NCBI GenBank assembly: GCA_026705925.1
Contig: JAPOZT010000019.1
Location: forward strand, 49,878-113,877
Length of the DNA: 64,000 nucleotides
Direction of reading: 5' to 3'
Source of the DNA: Gemmatimonadota bacterium
GTDB lineage: Bacteria; JAAXHH01
Shown: positions 4,111 through 39,005 of the stretch, piece after piece
How positions within the stretch are numbered: the stretch's first letter is position 1
Layout: each line of letters starts with the position of its first letter
Made by a program: the position numbers and the translations under genes
The notes under the pieces: generated by a model
What the model was told of the DNA's origin: nothing
What the model saw: the letters and a program-made list of their open reading frames with translations, nothing else
Database searches by the model: none

Positions 4111-4337
4111 TCGGACCACCTCCATCCATTTCGTAAGCGAGGTTCCCTTCTATCGAGTAAAATCTCCTGCCTTCCCTTCACCTCGACAACCACTTCCTTT
4201 ATCTCCTTCAAGTCGTCACGAATACCTCGGATTCCATCTGTGATTTTTGTCAGATACTGCCCTCTTAGAGTGAGAAAAACCATGATGACCGCACAAATGG
4301 CAATGACGCTGGACGGTATGATACTCAGGTCAAACAT
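4107..4337 (-). CDS. small N-terminally anchored coiled-coil membrane protein (islet gene B)
   Basis: Start at MFDLSI with GGGAGAGGGA immediately upstream. One TM helix (IIPSSVIAICAVIMVFLTL) followed by charged heptad-like region. Confidence 0.45.
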   Translation of the reverse strand: MFDLSIIPSSVIAICAVIMVFLTLRGQYLTKITDGIRGIRDDLKEIKEVVVEVKGRQEILLDRREPRLRNGWRWSE

Positions 4338-30976: not shown

Positions 30977-31013
30977 TTGACGTAGCATGGATGCGGGGCT
31001 ATTATGCTATAAT
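30977..31013 (+). promoter_or_regulatory. sigma70-like promoter of higBA (TTGACG-N17-TATTAT), -10 region abuts the start codon
   Basis: Hexamers read directly. Predicted TSS at about 31012, implying a leaderless or near-leaderless higB mRNA. Confidence 0.4.
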
Positions 31014-31305
31014 GATAATGTCGTTCCGCAGTAAAGGAACTGAAGATATCTTCGATGGACGCGAAACACGTGCTGCGCGCTCCACATGTCCGTCCTCACT
31101 ATGGTCTGTTGCTGTACGTAAACTTGAACAGTTGGATTCGGTTGATAAACTACATGACATGAACAAACCCCCAGGCAATCGTCTCCAGTCCCTGCGAGGT
31201 GCGCGTTCCGGGCAGTACAGCGTTCGAATCAACGACCAGTACCGCGTGTGCTTCGTCTGGTCGGATGCTGGACCGCGGGATGTTGAAATCGTCGACTATC
31301 ATTAA
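31012..31305 (+). CDS. higB: HigB toxin (RelE/ParE superfamily, plasmid-maintenance killer protein)
   Basis: MIMSFRSKGTEDIFDG...PPGNRLQSL...YSVRINDQYRVCFVW...DVEIVDYH matches HigB family. Confidence 0.75.
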   Translation: MIMSFRSKGTEDIFDGRETRAARSTCPSSLWSVAVRKLEQLDSVDKLHDMNKPPGNRLQSLRGARSGQYSVRINDQYRVCFVWSDAGPRDVEIVDYH

Positions 31306-31326
31306 AACAAGTTAGAGGTGTTTATT

Positions 31327-31641
31327 ATGGTACGTGTTCCTACAAATCGCATTCCAACCCATCCGGGTGAAATGCTGCTGGAAGAGTTCCTGATACCTAT
31401 GAAGTTGACGCAGCGTGAATTGGCTGACGCACTTAACGTTCCCTACCAGCGCGTGAACGAACTGGTAAACGCCCGTCGCGGTATTACACCCAGCACAGCG
31501 CTGCGCCTGGCCAAGTACTTCGACGTGTCGCCCTCATTCTGGCTGAATCTACAGCTACGTTGGGACTTGTATCACGCTATGCGGTCAGAAGCCCGCGAGT
31601 TGGCGGCGATCGAGCCTCGGCGCATAGGCGTCGAAGCGTAA
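31327..31641 (+). CDS. higA: HigA antitoxin (XRE-family HTH addiction-module antidote)
   Basis: HPGEMLLEEFL...LTQRELADALNVPYQRVNELVNARRGITPSTALRLAKYF. Confidence 0.75.
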   Translation: MVRVPTNRIPTHPGEMLLEEFLIPMKLTQRELADALNVPYQRVNELVNARRGITPSTALRLAKYFDVSPSFWLNLQLRWDLYHAMRSEARELAAIEPRRIGVEA

Positions 31642-31711: not shown

Positions 31712-34114
31712 TCACCCGGTACGCAACGCGTCGACTGGATTGGCCGTGGCGGCCTTCAACGCGTGGTATCCCACCGTCAACCAGGTAACAAGTAGCGTTG
31801 CAAGGCCGGCAAACACGAAAACCCACAGGCTCAGTTCGATACGATAGGGAAAGTTTTCCAGCCACGTCTGCACACCGAAGAAACCTGCCGGAGCGCCGAT
31901 CACGAATGCGAGCAGGACCAGCTTAGTGTAGTCCCCGGACAACAGCAGTATGACGTTCGAAATCGTAGCGCCGAGGACCTTGCGTACGCCGATTTCCCTG
32001 GTCCGCTGCTCCGCCATGTAGGCTGCCAGTCCCAGAAGTCCCAGGCACGCGATCAGAATGGAAAGCACCGCGCCGGCGACGAAGACGGATCCCAGCCTTT
32101 GCTCGGCATCGTACTGTCGCTCGAGTTCCTGGTCCAGGAAGTAGAAATCCATGCCGGGATGGCTTTGATACGTTGTCCGCCACCGGTCCTGTAGGATTTC
32201 AAGTCCGCGGGGCAGGTCCTGTCCCTGCAGCCTGACCACCATAAACCTGCCTTCTGGCCAGTACATTACGATCAAGGGCTCAATGCGTTGATGCAGCGAT
32301 TGGTGGTGATAATCCGCCATCAGGCCGATGACGTTCCTGGATGGAGCAGTATCTGGTGCGCCCGGCTGCCTGAAGGTCTTTCCGATCGGGTCTTTCCATC
32401 CAAAAGTGCGTGCGGCAGTTTCGTTGATCACGACGGCGTCGTTGTCGGAGGTGAAAGTCCGCGAAAACGAACGGCCGGACTTGATCTCGATGTCCAGTGT
32501 TTCCAGGAAGTCGAAGTCCGCCCAGATCGTGGCGACCAAAGGCGTCTGATCCTCCGGGAATCCTTCTGGTTGAATCGAATTGAGCGAGGGTGCCGTCCCG
32601 GGTACGCTGGCCGATGAACTCACGTTTAAGATTTCCGGATACTGCATGACCTCGCGCTTGAATACCGGATAACCAAGCACAGCCTCTCTATCGGGAAGTC
32701 GTATGACTACCACGTGTTCTTTATCGAATCCCAGCTTCTTGTTCCGCATGTACTCCACCTGCCCGAGCACGGTAGCCGTTCCGATAATCACGACAATCGA
32801 GACGATGAACTGGAAGGTGATCAGCGCTATTCGCAGAAAGGACAGGGAGCCCCCCGCTTTCAACTCGCCACTCAGTACGGCAACCGGCCTGAAGGACGAA
32901 AGGACGAGTGCGGGATATCCGCCGGCAGCGATTCCCGTAAAAAGGATTATCGCCCCGAGGGTCGGCACCAGCCATGTTGACTGATAGTCCATTTCCAGCG
33001 CTTTACCGGACAACTGGTTGAACTGCGGCAGGAGCAGGTGGACCAGTGCGAGTGCGACGATCAGCGCGATCAGGGAAAAGAAGACCGACTCTCCGATAAA
33101 CTGCTTGATCAGCTGGACCCGGTGGGCACCCAGTACTTTCCGGATGCCGACCTCCTGCGCCCTTCTGACGGCACGGGCGGTGGCCAGGTTCATGAAGTTG
33201 ACGCAGGCAATCAGCAAGATGAAAGCGGCCAGGGAGGAGAAGATGTAAACATACCGTACGTCGCTGTTCGCTTCGATCTCGAGCTTCAGATGGGAGTGCA
33301 GATGTATGTCGGTGAGCGACTGCAGGAACGGTCTCATTTCCATGCCCAGTGCCTTCAGTTGCTCACCCACATGTCTATCCAGAAACTGAGGGAGTTTCTT
33401 CTCCAGATCTTCGGCGGCACGTCCTTCCTTGAGCAGAAGATACGTGTACATGGAGGAGTTCAGGTTCCTCATCGTGGTCGGCTCGAAGTATATGCCATCC
33501 ACCGCCATGGTGGCGAAGGAGGCCAGGAAGTCGGCGTGGAAATGCGAATTTGCAGGCATGTCCCGCATGATCCCCGTAACCGTAAAGTTATACTGGTCGT
33601 CAGCAGCGATGACTTTTCCAATCGGATTTTCATCTCCGAAATACTTCTCCACCATCGCTTCCGAAACCACCACGGCGTGCGGTTCCGCCAGGGCTGTCTT
33701 TGGATTTCCCTGAACAAGGGGGATAGTGAAAATGTCAAAGACCGACGAATCCGCGAAGACGAAATACTTCTCATAGGACCGATTATCGCCGTAGCGAACG
33801 AGCCAACCGGTGTTCGGCGGCTTTATCCGCGTGTAGTGTTCGATTTCAGGGAATTCCGACGCCAGTACAGGGGCCCAGGACGGAGGCGACATCGCCCATT
33901 CATCCGGTTTGCCACCCGCCATCTCGGAGATCGCCAGGCGATAAATCCGTTCCTTCTTCTCGTGGTGCTGGTCGTAGCTGAGTTCGTCCTGCACATAGAG
34001 CATGATCAACACGCAGGAGGCTATACCGATAGCCAATCCAAGCACGTTGATCGCCGAATAGCCTCTGTACTGGAGCAGATGCCTTATGGCGGTGTTCAGG
34101 TAGTTTCTGAACAT
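31712..34114 (-). CDS. FtsX-family (MacB-type) ABC transporter permease, 800 aa, paralog of 27370-29772
   Basis: Same architecture and N-terminus (MFRNYLNTAIRHLLQYRGYSAIN versus MLKHYFTISARHLLRHKPYAALN). Confidence 0.75.
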   Translation of the reverse strand: MFRNYLNTAIRHLLQYRGYSAINVLGLAIGIASCVLIMLYVQDELSYDQHHEKKERIYRLAISEMAGGKPDEWAMSPPSWAPVLASEFPEIEHYTRIKPPNTGWLVRYGDNRSYEKYFVFADSSVFDIFTIPLVQGNPKTALAEPHAVVVSEAMVEKYFGDENPIGKVIAADDQYNFTVTGIMRDMPANSHFHADFLASFATMAVDGIYFEPTTMRNLNSSMYTYLLLKEGRAAEDLEKKLPQFLDRHVGEQLKALGMEMRPFLQSLTDIHLHSHLKLEIEANSDVRYVYIFSSLAAFILLIACVNFMNLATARAVRRAQEVGIRKVLGAHRVQLIKQFIGESVFFSLIALIVALALVHLLLPQFNQLSGKALEMDYQSTWLVPTLGAIILFTGIAAGGYPALVLSSFRPVAVLSGELKAGGSLSFLRIALITFQFIVSIVVIIGTATVLGQVEYMRNKKLGFDKEHVVVIRLPDREAVLGYPVFKREVMQYPEILNVSSSASVPGTAPSLNSIQPEGFPEDQTPLVATIWADFDFLETLDIEIKSGRSFSRTFTSDNDAVVINETAARTFGWKDPIGKTFRQPGAPDTAPSRNVIGLMADYHHQSLHQRIEPLIVMYWPEGRFMVVRLQGQDLPRGLEILQDRWRTTYQSHPGMDFYFLDQELERQYDAEQRLGSVFVAGAVLSILIACLGLLGLAAYMAEQRTREIGVRKVLGATISNVILLLSGDYTKLVLLAFVIGAPAGFFGVQTWLENFPYRIELSLWVFVFAGLATLLVTWLTVGYHALKAATANPVDALRTG

Positions 34115-34298: not shown

Positions 34299-35570
34299 CT
34301 ACAGCTTGTAGTTCCCGGCGTTGATGGTGAGCGTTCCGTCTTCGTGTTCCTCGTGCTCCTCGTGTTCCTCCTGCTCCTCTTCGTTACTTTCCGTCCCTTC
34401 GGCCGCATCGTGCATCGTGCCTTCATTGACGACCATTCTGGCTTCAACTGCGCTCATCTGGTCCGGAAAGCAGGTTATCGTTCCCCAATTGTAAACTGCG
34501 GCCAGACGATCATGAAGTTGCCCGGCGTCTACGTCTTCTTCAATGGTCAGGTTTCCCGAATTGTACAGTGTGGCGGTCCAATCGATCAGATCCAGGCGCG
34601 ACTGGCGAAGCGTGAGGTCGGTTTCCACGACCCAGAGGGCGCCCTCATAGAAGGCGACATCGGTGTTCAAAGTATCGCAGGTGCCCGAAAAGACTTCGCT
34701 CAGCGGTTCCGGGCACAGGACCCTGCCCGTACAGACGAGACCATCGAGCGCCCGGTCCAGTGCGTCTGCGTCTATGTCGTCATGAATCGTGACGTCCCCG
34801 TTAGCGTAGATCTTCCTCCCCTTCCACGACCGGATGCTTCCGGCGGTCAGGGACAGGTCGCGTTCGACCAGTTCATGGTCGTCGGGCACGACGGTCGTCT
34901 GCGGAGTACCGGCCCCGGGATCATATTTGGAGCGAAGCATACGAACGTTTCCCGCGCGGCAGAGGACATCGCCCCTGACGTGGACCGTATTGAGCTTCCG
35001 GTCGAGCGCGTCGTTCGGCACGGGCTCCGGAATCCTGAGATTCCCGGTGATGACCAGGTCCACGCCATCGGGCAGTGTCGCCAGATAGACTTCATCCAGC
35101 ACGACGTCGCCGTTAATAAGTTGCGCGGAGGTCCTGTACGAAGCGAGGCCTCCCATATTGGACGTCAGTTTGTTCGTGATCGGTCCGGCCACGTGTTCCG
35201 GGTACAGGATGTTCCCCATGTTGATGATTTCACTCCATGAACCTTCCACTCCTTCAGCGGTGACATCCGGTTCCAGTGTGATGTTGCTCATATTCAGGAT
35301 AAGAAACGGCTCTGGTTCACCTGAAAACGCATCCCTGCCCAGGATCTCATCTGCCATGACCGTCTTCAGCCTGACCTCTTTGGGGACTTCGATCAGGGTT
35401 CCCATGTTATTGGAAAACATCGACAGGAAATCTCTGGTTTCAGGCGTCACCAGTACGGTGCCGGCATTGACATGCAAGATCCTGGACGCTACCTGTTCCG
35501 TGGTTTCCCGCATGTCCAGTGTGCCGCAATTGATTCGAACCGAACGGGGGGCGCGCTCTTCGAGTTTCAT
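34299..35570 (-). CDS. soluble repeat protein (beta-helix-like xNGDVxIxxDxD modules) with C-terminal Glu/His-rich tail, downstream of ECF sigma
   Basis: AGGAGG-N6-ATG. At least three internal repeats (LINGDVVLDEV..., YANGDVTIHDDIDADALDRALDG..., YNSGNLTIEEDVDAGQLHDRLAA...). Tail EEQEEHEEHEEHED. Confidence 0.5.
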   Translation of the reverse strand: MKLEERAPRSVRINCGTLDMRETTEQVASRILHVNAGTVLVTPETRDFLSMFSNNMGTLIEVPKEVRLKTVMADEILGRDAFSGEPEPFLILNMSNITLEPDVTAEGVEGSWSEIINMGNILYPEHVAGPITNKLTSNMGGLASYRTSAQLINGDVVLDEVYLATLPDGVDLVITGNLRIPEPVPNDALDRKLNTVHVRGDVLCRAGNVRMLRSKYDPGAGTPQTTVVPDDHELVERDLSLTAGSIRSWKGRKIYANGDVTIHDDIDADALDRALDGLVCTGRVLCPEPLSEVFSGTCDTLNTDVAFYEGALWVVETDLTLRQSRLDLIDWTATLYNSGNLTIEEDVDAGQLHDRLAAVYNWGTITCFPDQMSAVEARMVVNEGTMHDAAEGTESNEEEQEEHEEHEEHEDGTLTINAGNYKL

Positions 35571-35672
35571 GGTCTTCCTCCTGTCCTTTGGTGTGGCATG
35601 CATCCGCAACCGGGAACCAGTAACTGAGGTACCTCGGCATTGTGCTCTCGGGGATTCGATACCGACGCATCG

Positions 35673-36185
35673 TCAGGCGAATCGGGATTTTCGCGCACGC
35701 AGTTTCCTGATGGCCACATGCAGGCGAAAACGGACCGTCGAAGCCGGAATTCCCGTCCGACTGGCGATTTCCTCGCTGGTCATTCCCGTTACGAAACGCA
35801 TATGAAAGAGATCGTGATCTTTCTCCGGTATGTGCCTCATCATCTCCGGTATGCTGATCGTTTCGAAAATGTGTGCATCCGTATCAGACCGCCATCCGGC
35901 GGTTTTATGGATCGACTCCTCCTTTAGGATTTGGTGTAGTGTCCCGAGGAATGCCCTTTCTCTCCGCCGGGCACGTTGCTTGTCCACGAACAGATTGCCC
36001 ATGGTCCTGAACATCCAGGCACGCCTCCGGTGGGGCGACAGCGATTTGAGCAGACGCAGGTTTCTCATGGCTCTCATGAACGTCTCCTGAAGCAGATCGT
36101 CCGCGTTGTCTTCGTCCGCTGTCAGCCGTCGAGCGTGCTTCATCAGTTGAGCGGCATACGTTTCATAAAGATCATCGACAGTCAT
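35673..36185 (-). CDS. ECF-subfamily RNA polymerase sigma-70 factor
   Basis: Region 2 (DDLLQETFMRAMRNL) and region 4 HTH (MTSEEIASRTGIPASTVRFRLHVAIRKLR). Confidence 0.8.
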   Translation of the reverse strand: MTVDDLYETYAAQLMKHARRLTADEDNADDLLQETFMRAMRNLRLLKSLSPHRRRAWMFRTMGNLFVDKQRARRRERAFLGTLHQILKEESIHKTAGWRSDTDAHIFETISIPEMMRHIPEKDHDLFHMRFVTGMTSEEIASRTGIPASTVRFRLHVAIRKLRARKSRFA

Positions 36186-36583
36186 CCGCGAATCCGATCA
36201 TCAACCTGAGAGCAATTAAAATCGAAGCAGTTCTCATGCCTATGGCAGTCTGGCGTCCAGGGTGTTTGCCACAGTTGGCGTTCCTTCGCTGATGCCGCGC
36301 TGCCGCGGGTGATGCTCCGGCGTCCAGGGCGCTCCACCGAGTGTGGCATTCTGTCACAGGTTACGCTCCACCGTGGGTGACGGCCTTTCACGGGTGGCGC
36401 CCCGCCGCGGGTGGCCGTCTACTATCTACGACGATCCACGATGAGGAACCGTTTGAAAAAAGAATGTAAATCCGTGTAGACGAAACCAAAACCCGGCCAG
36501 GCAAGTCAATACAGTGCGGGACGTGGCGATCATCCTGTCAGAAACGGTCATTCCATCGTACGAGATATCGGTCAGGAGGGTAT

Positions 36584-38244
36584 ATGTGGCCAGCGTTGCG
36601 GGATTTCCTGGACGTACCTGAAGAGTTGACGGGAAAGGGCGTCCGTATCGCCATTGTCGACGGCGATTTCCCGAATCATCCAGATATCACTACGAACCAA
36701 CACCGTACTTCCCACAAAGTAATGGTGATGGATCCAGATCTGGTTCCGAAGGAGTTTAACGTTGAATCCGGACCGTGGAAAGGCGGTGCCCACGGTCTCT
36801 GGGCCGCGGCCTCCGCGGCAAGTTCCGGCGCCGAATCCAGGGGGCTGTACAAGGGTGTGGCCCACGATGCGGATCTGTTTCTCGTCGCCCGTTATTTTCC
36901 CGGACAGAGCCGGCAACCGGGAAAATAGATGAAGCGCATCTCAGGTCCCTGGAATGGATCCGGGACAATTGGCGGAAGTATGAGATTCGCGGAGTTTTAA
37001 CGGCCAGAAAAAGCGCTTTGGACGCAAGCCTTCTACCCTGGCAGTCGGACCCAGTCAGGGTATTGTGCGAGGAAATCGCGTCCGAGGGGGTTCTTGTCGT
37101 ATCCGGTTCGGGAAACCTATCTGACCGGACGGCCGCTTTGGCAGAAGCAGCGGCTCCTTCCGCTCTTTCTGTCGGCGGGGTCGTGATTCCATCGAATGGA
37201 GATCCTGGGAGCGCGGATGTTTTTCCCGGATGCCGGGGAACGACCTTCGAAGGGAAGTGGATACCCGAAATCCTGGCGCCCGCAGCGAACATCGTGCTGC
37301 CGCATGGAACCGATAAAGAGATTGAGCACCACTACTACGGGAAGATCGACGATCTGCCCCGTCGATACGCGCGACTGCACGGCACCTCGTTCGCCGGACC
37401 GATAGTCCTTGGCGTCGCGGCCTGTCTGTGGCAGGCGCGACCCGAATGGACGAGCCAGGAAATGAAGTCGGCCCTCATCGAATCGTCCATACAACAGCCG
37501 GGATGGACCGACCTGCGCGCCGGTCTCGTTTCGGTCCGCGCCGCCCTGGGCTCAACGCCATCAGCAACCCGTCGTGACCACGGAATCTGGCCCCGCCAGC
37601 CCTGGACCGTGTTACGCTCGCTATCCGTAGCGTCCAGACTGGGGATGCTGGGAGATAGCGATCCGGAACACGTTATAGCAGCCATTCTCTCTTTTGTCGG
37701 AGACGAGAACGCGCTCCCTGACAATGTATTGATACCCTTCCGGACGTGTTTGCGACATACGGATCCCCGCGTCCGAGCCGCTGCGTCGTGTGCCCTGGCC
37801 ATGGGACGCTCCTCGATAAACGCTTCCGAGATCATCGAAGCGTTCAGGGACGATTCTCCTTTCGTCCGCGCCGCCATCATATCTCTGCTGCGTAAACATT
37901 CGGATCTCTGGACAGAATGCACCACGGCGTTACCCGACCTCTTCAATGATACGAACCCGGATGTCCGCTACGCGGCCCTCCAGCTTGCCGTACAGATGGC
38001 GGATCCGCGAATGGCCTGTGCAATCCTGGCCGGCCTGGAGGAGGACGCCCGGGCGAATCGAATTTCGAGCTTTGCAACTCGAAGGAATGCGCTGGAAGCA
38101 ATAACGGCTCACCGGCTGGAAATGACGCCGCCTTACAGGCATGGAGAGCCGTTCTACTCCGACGACCTCCGTGCATCGCGGCTGGATCTTGCGCGCCGAT
38201 GGAATGAGTGGATCCGGGAAGAGTGGCTGCCGGAACGTGCGTAG
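36584..38244 (+). pseudogene. S8 subtilisin-family peptidase fused to C-terminal HEAT-like repeats, split by a +1/-1 frameshift near 36895-36915
   Basis: Frame A carries Asp (IAIVDGDF) and His (HGLWAAASAASSG) motifs. Frame B carries Ser motif (GTSFAGPIVLG) and HEAT-like repeats (PDVRYAALQLAVQMADPRMA). Junction in tttt/ccc run. Confidence 0.6.
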
Positions 38245-38397: not shown

Positions 38398-38610
38398 TCA
38401 CTGCTCAAGATTCGTAATCTTCTCTTCAACAAACACCTGCTCAATCGGCATATCAAATAACCTGGAGATCTTGAAGGCCAGGGACAGGCTCGGGTCATAC
38501 TTGCCTTTCTCAATGGCATTCACTGTCTGCCTCGAGACTTTCAAACGATCCGCCAATTCGGCCTGGGTCCAGTCCCTTTCGGCGCGCAATACCTTCAGAC
38601 GGTTTCTCAT
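38398..38610 (-). CDS. XRE-family HTH transcriptional regulator (70 aa), cassette 1
   Basis: MRNRLKVLRAERDWTQAELADRLKVSRQTVNAIEKGKYDPSLSLAFKISRLF, Cro/C1-type HTH. Confidence 0.8.
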   Translation of the reverse strand: MRNRLKVLRAERDWTQAELADRLKVSRQTVNAIEKGKYDPSLSLAFKISRLFDMPIEQVFVEEKITNLEQ

Positions 38611-39005
38611 CGGTACTTCCTACCGGCGACGAGTTGCCCCATACTCCAAAGCAGAATCATGACAAAGCCAACCCACATCGTGTTGAAGGAAGGAAATCCC
38701 ACGTTTTCCAGCAACCCGTAGCTCAAACAGAAAATCAGGGTGGCAATGTACGCGATCACAACCGCTTCAAGATGTAAGTGCCTGAGCATTTCATCCATAC
38801 GCCGAACGAAACGAACCACGGCCAGCATCATGAACACGAAGGGGATCACCGGCGCCACCGTAACCGGGATCCGCCAGGGTGAATCGAGGTTCTCTCTCAG
38901 AAACATCAGCGACGCTACCTGTACGACTACATAGGCCAGCATGGAGCCGCCGAATTCCAGCAAATAACGTATTGTAGTTTGTCTCATCGTGTGCTGCCTC
39001 CTCAC
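38607..39005 (-). CDS. small polytopic membrane protein partnered with XRE regulator, cassette 1
   Basis: ATGA overlap with downstream HTH gene. Four hydrophobic helices. TTGACA-type promoter upstream. Confidence 0.55.
   Translation of the reverse strand: MRRQHTMRQTTIRYLLEFGGSMLAYVVVQVASLMFLRENLDSPWRIPVTVAPVIPFVFMMLAVVRFVRRMDEMLRHLHLEAVVIAYIATLIFCLSYGLLENVGFPSFNTMWVGFVMILLWSMGQLVAGRKYR

What the first reader, a model, noticed from the sequence alone, without database searches (positions are those of the whole stretch)
34299..36185. ECF sigma factor followed by a soluble beta-helix-like repeat protein with a Glu/His-rich tail (candidate non-canonical anti-sigma or metal-sensing partner)
About 100 nt downstream of an ECF sigma gene lies a 423-aa ORF with an excellent RBS, no TM segment, at least three internal repeats of the form (Y/L)xNGDVxIxxDIDAxxLxxxL...CPEP, and a C-terminal EEQEEHEEHEEHED tract typical of Ni/Zn-binding tails. 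Canonical anti-sigma factors of ECF systems are membrane proteins. A cytoplasmic repeat protein with a metal-binding tail in this position is unusual. The 390-bp region upstream of the sigma gene (36186-36580) also contains degenerate GC-rich repeats (CGGGTG-containing units).
Basis: partly seen in the sequence, partly recalled or inferred. Interest (0 to 1): 0.55.

Follow-up and report, generated by a model that had tools for sequence, protein, structure and literature searches.

The report
ECF sigma with conserved soluble repeat partner
A small alternative sigma factor gene is followed by a gene for a very acidic, membrane-free 423-residue repeat protein, and this pair sits behind one shared self-activating promoter motif in at least eight bacterial phyla, so it is probably an undescribed kind of sigma-factor regulator.

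Summary
On the minus strand, an ECF sigma gene (35673-36185, 170 aa) lies 102 nt upstream of a 423-aa ORF (34299-35570). That ORF has an AGGAGG ribosome-binding site, no membrane segment, internal repeats and an acidic His-containing tract.

The sigma genes share an ECF-type promoter, AACACTT-N13-CGTTnTa (window copy 36431-36455). The partner consists of five tandem repeats of about 81 aa that form an alpha/beta solenoid. Covariation links its invariant C-terminal strand to the three N-terminal rungs.

The His residues are not conserved (6 of 190 members), so metal sensing is at most local to this clade. My best reading is a new structural class of cytoplasmic anti-sigma, or sigma-binding, partner (confidence 0.55).

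The parts
36431..36455 (-). ECF-type autoregulatory promoter: CAAAC (-35) at 36451-36455, a 16-nt spacer, then TCGT (-10) at 36431-36434, preceded by a T-tract
   Evidence: Pattern match. The site is conserved in position and sequence upstream of the sigma gene in Gemmatimonadota relatives. Twenty-six sites with a fixed 17-nt AAC-to-CGT spacer align to the consensus CaAACACTT-N13-CGTTnTa. The window site scores 32.7 bits in the position-weight matrix; the next best site in the 64 kb scores 13.5.
36186..36430 (-). Leader of about 245 nt between the promoter and the sigma start codon. It carries the degenerate GC-rich repeats (CGGGTG on the plus strand, CACCCG on the transcribed strand) at 36276-36413.
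   Evidence: Repeat family D1 has 4 copies and D2 has 2 copies. Similar units occur in close relatives L058 and L060 but not in L010, L009 or L001. No RNA structure is significant: z = -0.08.
35673..36185 (-). ECF sigma factor gene, 170 aa, pI 10.6, sigma-2 and sigma-4 domains only
   Evidence: The closest solved relative is M. tuberculosis SigL, 60 bits. The acidic sigma-2.2 motif NADDLLQE is present (read).
35571..35672 (-). 102-nt spacer between the sigma and partner genes, with AGGAGG at 35577-35582
   Evidence: The spacer is 87-108 nt in Gemmatimonadota but has a median of 15 nt across the family, with 7 overlaps.
34299..35570 (-). Partner gene: 423-aa acidic (pI 4.42, net charge about -40) cytoplasmic alpha/beta solenoid protein
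35307..35546 (-). Super-repeat R0 (aa 9-88). Its three rungs carry the NxG motifs N14, N35 and N55.
   Evidence: hhalign R0-R1 96.4%, R0-R2 88.2%. Covariation ladder 16/37/57.
35064..35306 (-). Super-repeat R1 (aa 89-169)
   Evidence: hhalign R1-R2 and R1-R3 both 99.1%.
34818..35063 (-). Super-repeat R2 (aa 170-251)
34575..34817 (-). Super-repeat R3 (aa 252-332)
34395..34574 (-). Super-repeat R4 (aa 333-392), shortened
   Evidence: hhalign R1-R4 98.5%.
34332..34400 (-). Disordered acidic linker (aa 391-413) holding the EEQEEHEEHEEHED tract
   Evidence: pLDDT below 50 for residues 391-405. The linker is acidic across the family, with a median D/E fraction of 0.38. His is enriched in only 6 of 190 members.
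34302..34331 (-). Conserved C-terminal strand (aa 414-423, TLTINAGNYKL). The protein always ends here.
   Evidence: N417 and L423 are nearly invariant. The top covarying pairs are G37-G419, G16-G419 and G57-G419. It is modelled as a long continuous strand, like the three N-terminal rungs.
31712..34114 (-). Downstream ADOP/MacB-like duplicated ABC permease, 800 aa. It may be co-transcribed. The link is specific to this lineage.
   Evidence: MacB_PCD and FtsX each match twice; TIGR03434 scores 295 bits. It follows the pair in the window, L001, L010, L058 and L061 (and, after an ATPase gene, in L009) but not in L060, and not outside this phylum.

Best explanation
The two genes form a self-contained regulatory module.

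The ECF sigma factor transcribes its own operon from an AAC/CGT promoter at 36431-36455. The co-transcribed 423-aa protein is its cognate cytoplasmic partner and most likely binds and holds the sigma factor inactive, that is, it acts as an anti-sigma factor. It would belong to a structural class not described before. It has no helical anti-sigma domain, no zinc motif and no membrane anchor. Instead it is a strongly acidic alpha/beta solenoid of five repeats of about 81 aa. Its C-terminal strand appears to pack against the N-terminal rungs.

An unknown cytoplasmic cue would release the basic sigma factor. In this Gemmatimonadota lineage the operon probably continues into an ADOP/MacB-type ABC permease, which suggests an export or detoxification output. 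The His-rich insert in the acidic loop may add metal sensitivity in this clade only.

**Shown:** the gene pair, the promoter, the repeats, the family and the strict co-occurrence. **Inferred:** physical binding, the sign of regulation, the signal and the regulon.
For: 1. **Co-occurrence.** An ECF sigma gene lies immediately upstream on the same strand in 46 of 47 non-redundant partner loci. These come from Gemmatimonadota, Latescibacterota, Chloroflexota, Spirochaetia, Bdellovibrionota/Oligoflexia, Bacillota (Paenibacillus, Halalkalibacter, Evansella), a locus with Por_Secre_tail genes, and marine metagenomes. A further member is named Candidatus Muiribacteriota. Three contig-end cases still show the sigma C-terminus.
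2. **No third partner.** No other gene recurs in more than 6 of 36 loci. No shared small ORF hides in the few long gaps.
3. **Tight coupling.** The gap from sigma stop to partner start has a median of 15 nt. It is 30 nt or less in 30 of 40 loci and overlaps in 7.
4. **Co-divergence.** Pairwise identities of sigma and partner correlate at r = 0.86, and 0 of 2000 Mantel permutations reach that value.
5. **One coherent, self-activating sigma group.** A promoter with consensus CaAACACTT-N13-CGTTnTa and a fixed 17-nt AAC-to-CGT spacer was found upstream of 26 sigma genes. Chance expectation is about 0.08 per locus.
6. **The sigma looks intrinsically active.** It keeps the acidic sigma-2.2 motif (NADDLLQE; DAED-type). 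Loss of that motif marks ECFs that need activation rather than inhibition (PMC8999054).
7. **The partner looks like a binding scaffold, not an enzyme.** The AF2 model has pLDDT 85.6 and is a repeat solenoid. Solved structures give only weak solenoid, LRR or L-domain matches. Family pI is 4.3-5.9, against a sigma pI of 10.6.
8. **Position.** In ECF systems the +1 gene is typically the anti-sigma factor, and the authors of the ECF classification state that further soluble types probably exist undetected (PMC7826278).
Against: - There is no direct evidence of binding.
- The partner has none of the defining features of known anti-sigma factors.
- Gene position alone cannot give the sign of regulation.
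- At about 400 aa, the partner is large for a pure sequestering protein.
- Covariation between the N- and C-terminal rungs hints at ring closure or self-assembly, which could point to a structural rather than regulatory role.
- No signal-sensing feature is conserved.
- The regulon is unknown. The only strong promoter match in the 64 kb is the operon's own.
Confidence: 0.55

Rival explanations
1. The partner is the main product (effector) of the sigma-dependent operon, not its regulator. It would be a self-associating cytoplasmic scaffold or filament whose C-terminal strand docks on the N-terminal rung of the next molecule. The sigma factor would be controlled elsewhere, for example by transcription or by the neighbouring XRE-type regulators.
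For: - The C-terminal strand covaries with the three N-terminal rungs (top MI-APC pairs). Yet it lies only 11-35 residues (median 21, about one rung) after the last repeat rung. This fits head-to-tail contact.
- Neither end of the solenoid has a recognisable cap.
- HTH_3 genes neighbour the pair in Gemmatimonadota.
- ECF groups without anti-sigma factors exist (PMC8999054).
Against: - An effector would not be expected to stay glued to its sigma gene, often with overlapping stop and start codons, across at least eight phyla while every other neighbour changes.
- The XRE genes are not conserved outside Gemmatimonadota.
- The covariation fits intramolecular closure equally well.
Confidence: 0.18
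2. The partner binds the sigma factor but acts positively. It would be a co-factor, stabiliser or adaptor that sigma needs to engage RNA polymerase or its promoter. This would resemble other non-inhibitory ECF partners, such as the Cas12f-derived proteins reported to guide Bacteroidetes ECF sigma factors.
For: - The same strict pairing, coupling and co-divergence apply.
- A non-inhibitory ECF partner has a precedent: 'Exapted CRISPR-Cas12f homologs drive RNA-guided transcription' (PMC13472631, listed; only its title and abstract were read).
- The promoter is unusually well conserved across phyla.
Against: - The sigma has ordinary sigma-2 and sigma-4 regions with the acidic 2.2 motif and a normal AAC/CGT promoter, so nothing suggests it needs help.
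- The partner has no nucleic-acid-binding feature and is strongly acidic.
- Most +1 partners of ECF sigmas are inhibitors (PMC7826278).
Confidence: 0.12
3. One reading: the partner is a metal sensor. Ni, Zn or Co binding to the Glu/His-rich tail would control release of the sigma factor.
For: - The window protein and its closest relatives (78% identity or more) carry EHEEHEEHE-type tracts.
- Two unrelated members, P0053 and P0121, also have His-rich inserts at the same loop.
- The downstream ABC permease could export a metal or a chelator.
Against: - Three or more His in the linker occur in only 6 of 190 members. Relatives at 55-63% identity in the same phylum have acidic linkers without His.
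- The tract has only four His, lies in a loop of variable length and is predicted to be disordered.
- The protein has no conserved Cys/His cluster, and neither CxxC nor HxxxCxxC is present (read).
Confidence: 0.1

Closest known systems
ECF sigma / cognate anti-sigma two-gene modules with soluble anti-sigma factors (RpoE-ChrR, SigR-RsrA, SigH-RshA; ECF11, 12 and 14)
   Same: - A positively autoregulated ECF sigma gene is followed by a co-transcribed, often translationally coupled, cytoplasmic partner.
- The promoter is of the AAC/CGT type.
- The pair is inherited as a unit.
   Different: - There is no helical anti-sigma domain, no HxxxCxxC zinc motif and no cupin domain.
- The partner is a 400-aa acidic alpha/beta repeat solenoid.
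- Binding and inhibition are untested.
Pfam PF17723 (RHH_8, 'Ribbon-Helix-Helix transcriptional regulator family')
   Same: - 49 of 70 diverse family members give weak matches.
- Three tested members (P0162, P0168, P0137) pass the 25.4-bit gathering score.
- All matches fall on profile positions of about 40-119, roughly the length of one super-repeat.
   Different: - The N-terminal part of the profile, about 40 positions, is never matched. By the family's name that is presumably the RHH part, though I could not check this.
- The window protein gives no match at E up to 1.
- I found nothing written about PF17723.
Leucine-rich-repeat and L-domain solenoids (plant LRR receptor ectodomains, insulin receptor L1, BT_1240)
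   Same: - The rungs are short, 21-27 residues, with a beta-strand, a conserved Asn/Gly turn (an NxG ladder) and a helix.
- These are the best, though weak, structural matches.
- They are typical protein-binding scaffolds.
   Different: - No Pfam LRR model matches.
- The rungs are organised into three-rung super-repeats of 81 aa.
- Covariation suggests contact between the C-terminal strand and the N-terminal rungs.
Acidic solenoid DNA mimics (pentapeptide-repeat proteins MfpA/Qnr)
   Same: - It is a strongly acidic, elongated repeat solenoid in the cytoplasm.
   Different: - There is no pentapeptide repeat and no Pfam match.
- It contains helices.
- This resemblance comes from my own knowledge and is a lead only.

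Membership tests
ECF (group IV) sigma-70 factors, for the upstream gene | Sigma-2 and sigma-4 domains only, about 150-200 aa | tested here: met
   Sigma70_r2 aligns to residues 6-75 and Sigma70_r4_2 to 112-162 of 170 aa. TIGR02937 scores 77.9 against a cut-off of 42.9.
ECF (group IV) sigma-70 factors, for the upstream gene | Bipartite AAC (-35) / CGT (-10) promoter upstream of its own gene (autoregulation) | tested here: met
   CAAAC-N16-TCGT lies at 36431-36455 and is conserved across phyla. Use of the promoter by this sigma factor is inferred, not shown.
A named ECF group or equivalog (SigW, SigM, SigZ, SigV, SigL and others) | Score above the curated cut-off of a group-specific model | tested here: not met
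   The best specific model, PRK09645, scores 82.8 against a cut-off of 202, and all equivalogs fall far below theirs. The ECF Hub group models were not available.
Class I anti-sigma factors (anti-sigma domain; ZAS subgroup) | N-terminal helical anti-sigma domain (zf-HC2, RskA or similar), with HxxxCxxC in ZAS proteins | tested here: not met
   There is no Pfam or NCBIfam match at E up to 1. The N-terminus is predicted as beta strands 11-19 and 31-41. No CxxC or HxxxCxxC is present (read).
Membrane-anchored ECF anti-sigma factors | At least one transmembrane helix after the cytoplasmic domain | tested here: not met
   The highest 19-residue hydropathy mean is 1.29. The family median is also 1.29.
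Functional anti-sigma factor (any class) | Direct binding to the cognate sigma factor and inhibition of its transcription | not testable with these tools
The evidence is indirect: co-occurrence, coupling and co-divergence.
Pfam PF17723 RHH_8 | Whole-protein score at or above the 25.4-bit gathering cut-off | tested here: not met
   The window protein has no match. Some distant family members pass, but only on profile positions of about 43-118.
Leucine-rich repeat proteins | Match to LRR sequence models, or a close structural superposition | tested here: not met
   No Pfam LRR model matches. The best Foldseek result is E 0.012 with TM 0.14-0.17.
His-rich metal-binding tails (as in Ni/Zn chaperones) | A His cluster conserved among orthologues | tested here: not met
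   Three or more His in the linker occur in 6 of 190 members and are absent from relatives at 55-63% identity.
ADOP duplicated permease (TIGR03434), for the downstream gene | Score above the 622.3-bit cut-off; duplicated MacB_PCD + FtsX architecture | tested here: inconclusive
   The architecture is met: MacB_PCD and FtsX each match in two stretches. The TIGR03434 score is 295.1, below the cut-off.

The most novel reading that the evidence does not exclude
The partner may be a new fold-level class of sigma regulator. It would be a strongly acidic alpha/beta solenoid whose last strand closes onto its first rungs, either forming a ring or linking molecules head to tail. Its length and charge would let it mimic promoter DNA spanning the -35 to -10 interval and so sequester the basic ECF sigma factor. 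This would define a whole ECF group, spread over at least eight phyla, with a regulatory principle not yet described.
Probability: 0.12. Interest if true: 0.8.

Novelty: new variant of a known kind. Interest (0 to 1): 0.6.

Why it matters
ECF sigma factors are among the most abundant bacterial signalling devices, yet many groups have no known regulator. This locus would define one such group.

- The group shares one promoter motif.
- It shares one strictly linked partner family with no entry of its own in the Pfam, NCBIfam or PADLOC copies searched.
- It is present in cultivable Bacillota, where it can be tested.

If the partner is an anti-sigma factor, it adds a new structural solution for sigma sequestration. 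It would also show that searches based on the anti-sigma domain or on membrane helices miss real regulators. If it is not, the pair is an unexplained obligate sigma-effector unit.

Either way, the conserved promoter gives an immediate handle for reporter assays and for predicting the regulon.

Tried and rejected
1. I built a 21-row paired alignment of sigma, a (GGGGS)6 linker and the partner.
2. **Library unavailable.** The afdb50 Foldseek library was not on the machine.
3. **Too-diverse alignment.** The search for related loci with the diverse alignment A2 failed for lack of a conserved stretch. A sub-alignment, A3, worked.
4. **Two wasted protein searches.** The profile search with A2 returned only close relatives because of the word pre-filter. 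A single repeat unit returned nothing.
5. **Literature.** Searches for RHH_8, PF17723, solenoid or LRR anti-sigma factors found nothing relevant. The supplement of the ECF classification paper is not held, so the ECF group number could not be assigned.
6. **Hidden small anti-sigma peptide: rejected.** The 47-aa ORF in L012 and the ORFs in the long gaps of L020 and L023 share nothing.
7. **Structured RNA in the leader: rejected.** The fold z-score is -0.08.
8. **Second promoter in the window: not found.** The next best position-weight-matrix score is 13.5 bits. The relaxed pattern gave 5 hits against 2.1 expected, and the hit I examined, at 4331, lies at the 3' end of a coding region.
9. **Anti-phage defence: rejected.** PADLOC gave no match.
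Full report
**What is in the sequence.** On the minus strand, a 170-aa ORF (35673-36185) is an ordinary ECF sigma factor.
- It has Sigma70_r2 and Sigma70_r4_2.
- TIGR02937 scores 77.9 against a cut-off of 42.9, but no group-specific NCBIfam model comes near its cut-off.
- The closest solved relative is M. tuberculosis SigL at 60 bits.

After a 102-nt spacer, and 6 nt after an AGGAGG site, a 423-aa ORF runs from 35570 to 34299.
- The ORF has no hydrophobic segment; the highest 19-residue hydropathy mean is 1.29.
- It is very acidic (pI 4.42, net charge about -40), whereas the sigma factor has pI 10.6.
- It matches nothing in Pfam, NCBIfam or PADLOC.

An 800-aa duplicated MacB_PCD/FtsX permease of the ADOP type follows at 31712-34114.

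**The partner's architecture.** The AlphaFold2 model, built from a 26-sequence alignment, has mean pLDDT 85.6 and pTM 0.68. It shows a regular alternation of short strands and helices.
- Profile-profile comparison of alignment segments shows five tandem super-repeats of about 81 aa: R0 9-88, R1 89-169, R2 170-251, R3 252-332, and a shortened R4 333-392. Probabilities reach 99.1%.
- Each super-repeat holds three rungs that start with an NxG turn.
- Mutual information on 143 sequences gives ladders spaced 21-24 residues apart (16/37/57; 72/94/118/139; 74/96/120/141). This is the signature of a solenoid.
- Foldseek against the PDB gives nothing below E 0.012; the best hits are plant LRR ectodomains at TM about 0.15.
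- A profile search of PDB sequences finds nothing.

The fold is thus a solenoid of no described family, mixed alpha/beta rather than a classical beta-helix, and it carries no enzyme signature.

**The tail.** The Glu/His tract lies in the only low-confidence stretch of the model, residues 391-405. It is a loop, not the end of the protein: a conserved strand, TLTINAGNYKL, follows, and every family member ends there.
- The loop is acidic throughout the family, with a median D/E fraction of 0.38. Three or more His occur in only 6 of 190 members. Relatives at 55-63% identity in the same phylum have none.
- The spacing from the last repeat rung (G384) to the terminal motif (N417) is 11-35 residues, median 21, which is about one rung. 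The window clade therefore has an expanded loop.
- The strongest covarying pairs in the whole protein join position 419 of the terminal strand to positions 37, 16 and 57 of the first three rungs, and 416 to 13.
- In the model, strands 11-19, 31-41, 53-61 and 414-422 are the only long continuous ones.

I read this as contact between the C-terminal strand and the N-terminal rungs. The contact could be within one molecule (closure) or between molecules (head to tail). I could not tell which, because model coordinates are not returned. A phylogenetic artefact is not fully excluded.

**The family and its context.** A full scan of 1.84 billion cluster representatives finds 371 proteins at E up to 0.001, and 218 at E up to 1e-10. 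Nearly all are about 400 aa long and match along their whole length. The only names any source gives are 'hypothetical protein'.

I collected loci by exact look-up and by pattern scans of genomes and metagenomes. After clustering partners at 90% identity there are 47 distinct loci.
- An ECF sigma gene lies immediately upstream on the same strand in 43 of them.
- Three more are cut by a contig end but still show the sigma C-terminus (E about 1e-14).
- The single exception, L057, is an 18-bit marginal relative.
- The hosts include Gemmatimonadota, Latescibacterota, Anaerolineae, Chloroflexia, Dehalococcoidia, Spirochaetia, Bdellovibrionota, Oligoflexia and cultured Bacillota (Paenibacillus solani, P. 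faecalis, Halalkalibacter, Evansella clarkii). Candidatus Muiribacteriota appears as a member's name only.
- No other gene family recurs in more than 6 of 36 loci. The ADOP permease is confined to Gemmatimonadota, and even there it is absent directly downstream in L060.
- The gap from sigma stop to partner start has a median of 15 nt. It is 30 nt or less in 30 of 40 loci and overlaps in 7. The three long gaps contain no shared small ORF.
- Sigma and partner identities co-vary across 21 pairs at r = 0.86, and 0 of 2000 Mantel permutations reach that value.

**The promoter.** Aligning the regions upstream of the Gemmatimonadota sigma genes shows a conserved block, TTTTTCAAAC-N16-TCGTC.
- The same architecture appears upstream of the sigma gene across the phyla sampled. 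Twenty-six sites with a fixed 17-nt AAC-to-CGT spacer align to the consensus CaAACACTT-N13-CGTTnTa. Several of the remaining loci carry one-mismatch or variant forms.
- Chance expectation for the fixed-spacer core is about 0.08 per 330-nt upstream region.
- The window copy is at 36431-36455. It scores 32.7 bits against the position-weight matrix, and the next best site in the 64 kb scores 13.5.
- These sigma factors therefore form one coherent group with a shared promoter specificity, and they very probably activate their own operon.

They lie in the leader of about 245 nt between this promoter and the start codon. They occur in close relatives only, and the leader shows no RNA structure beyond chance. 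I regard them as a lineage-specific leader expansion of unknown role.

**Interpretation.** Strict pairing, translational coupling, co-divergence and autoregulation together form the pattern of an ECF sigma factor with its cognate regulator.
- The sigma factor keeps the acidic 2.2 motif (NADDLLQE). ECFs that need activation lack this motif (PMC8999054), so negative control is the simplest expectation.
- The ECF reclassification paper states that its method can recognise soluble anti-sigma factors only by similarity to known ones, and that further soluble types probably exist (PMC7826278).
- Neither that paper's main text nor the 2022 review of non-canonical ECFs mentions a repeat or solenoid partner.

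I therefore favour a new structural class of cytoplasmic anti-sigma or sigma-binding factor, at confidence 0.55. The alternatives are:
- an obligate effector or self-assembling scaffold (0.18);
- a positive co-factor (0.12);

**What remains untested.** Binding, the sign of regulation, the signal and the regulon are all untested.

**Comparison with known families.** The nearest curated entry is Pfam PF17723 (RHH_8).
- 49 of 70 diverse members give weak matches, and three tested members pass the gathering score. All matches fall on profile positions of about 40-119, roughly one super-repeat.
- The N-terminal part of that profile is never matched, and the window protein itself gives no match.
- This suggests that short proteins exist which carry one copy of the repeat. 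I could not examine them.

**Verdict.** It is a widespread, unannotated partner family of ECF sigma factors with a shared promoter. The metal-tail argument is weak. I rate it a new variant of a known kind, with interest 0.6.

Noticed in passing
window 36584-38244 (+): A subtilase (Peptidase_S8) gene with C-terminal HEAT repeats is transcribed divergently from the sigma operon. It is split into two overlapping ORFs. Compared with the intact 567-aa homologue at the same position in L010, there is one frameshift near 36920-36930. It is either a pseudogene or an assembly error. The gene is absent at this position in the closest relative, L058.
   Followed up: partly
window 30991-31641 (+): A HigB-like toxin gene (104 aa, PF05015) and an HTH_3 antitoxin-like gene (107 aa) lie just downstream of the ADOP permease. 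In related loci, HTH_3 genes of 104-106 aa repeatedly flank ADOP permease genes.
   Followed up: partly
window 38398-39005 (-): A 132-aa ORF with no family match overlaps by 4 nt with a 70-aa HTH_3 regulator gene. The pair is syntenic with L001 and L058.
   Followed up: no
window 36186-36215 (-), and the equivalent positions in L058, L060, L010 and L009: A conserved block, GGTTGATGATCGGA, lies about 10 nt upstream of the sigma start codon in Gemmatimonadota. No clear Shine-Dalgarno sequence is present there. It may be a translation-initiation or regulatory element.
   Followed up: no
L012 5846-5989: In a locus with Por_Secre_tail genes, a 47-aa acidic ORF lies between the sigma and partner genes. 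It has no counterpart in the other loci with long gaps.
   Followed up: partly
L029, L030 and L004, upstream of the sigma genes: Three loci, two from Paenibacillus and one from a marine metagenome, share a variant -35 region, ATCCATCAGTTT, in place of AACACTT. They keep the AACGT(T/C)(A/T)ATA -10 region. This may be a sub-group with altered -35 recognition.
   Followed up: no
L015 3346-5253: A 635-aa protein that combines sigma-70 r2/r4 domains with HEAT repeats is encoded near one pair. HEAT repeats also occur in the S8 protease next to the window pair.
   Followed up: no
L057 2959-3839: This is the only weak relative of the partner (18 bits, 25% identity) with no adjacent sigma gene. It may belong to a different branch of the repeat family.
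   Followed up: no
L061 5394-5903: The source's gene calls list no sigma gene upstream of the partner, but tblastn finds an intact one at 85% identity. This is a gene-calling gap, not a loss.
   Followed up: yes
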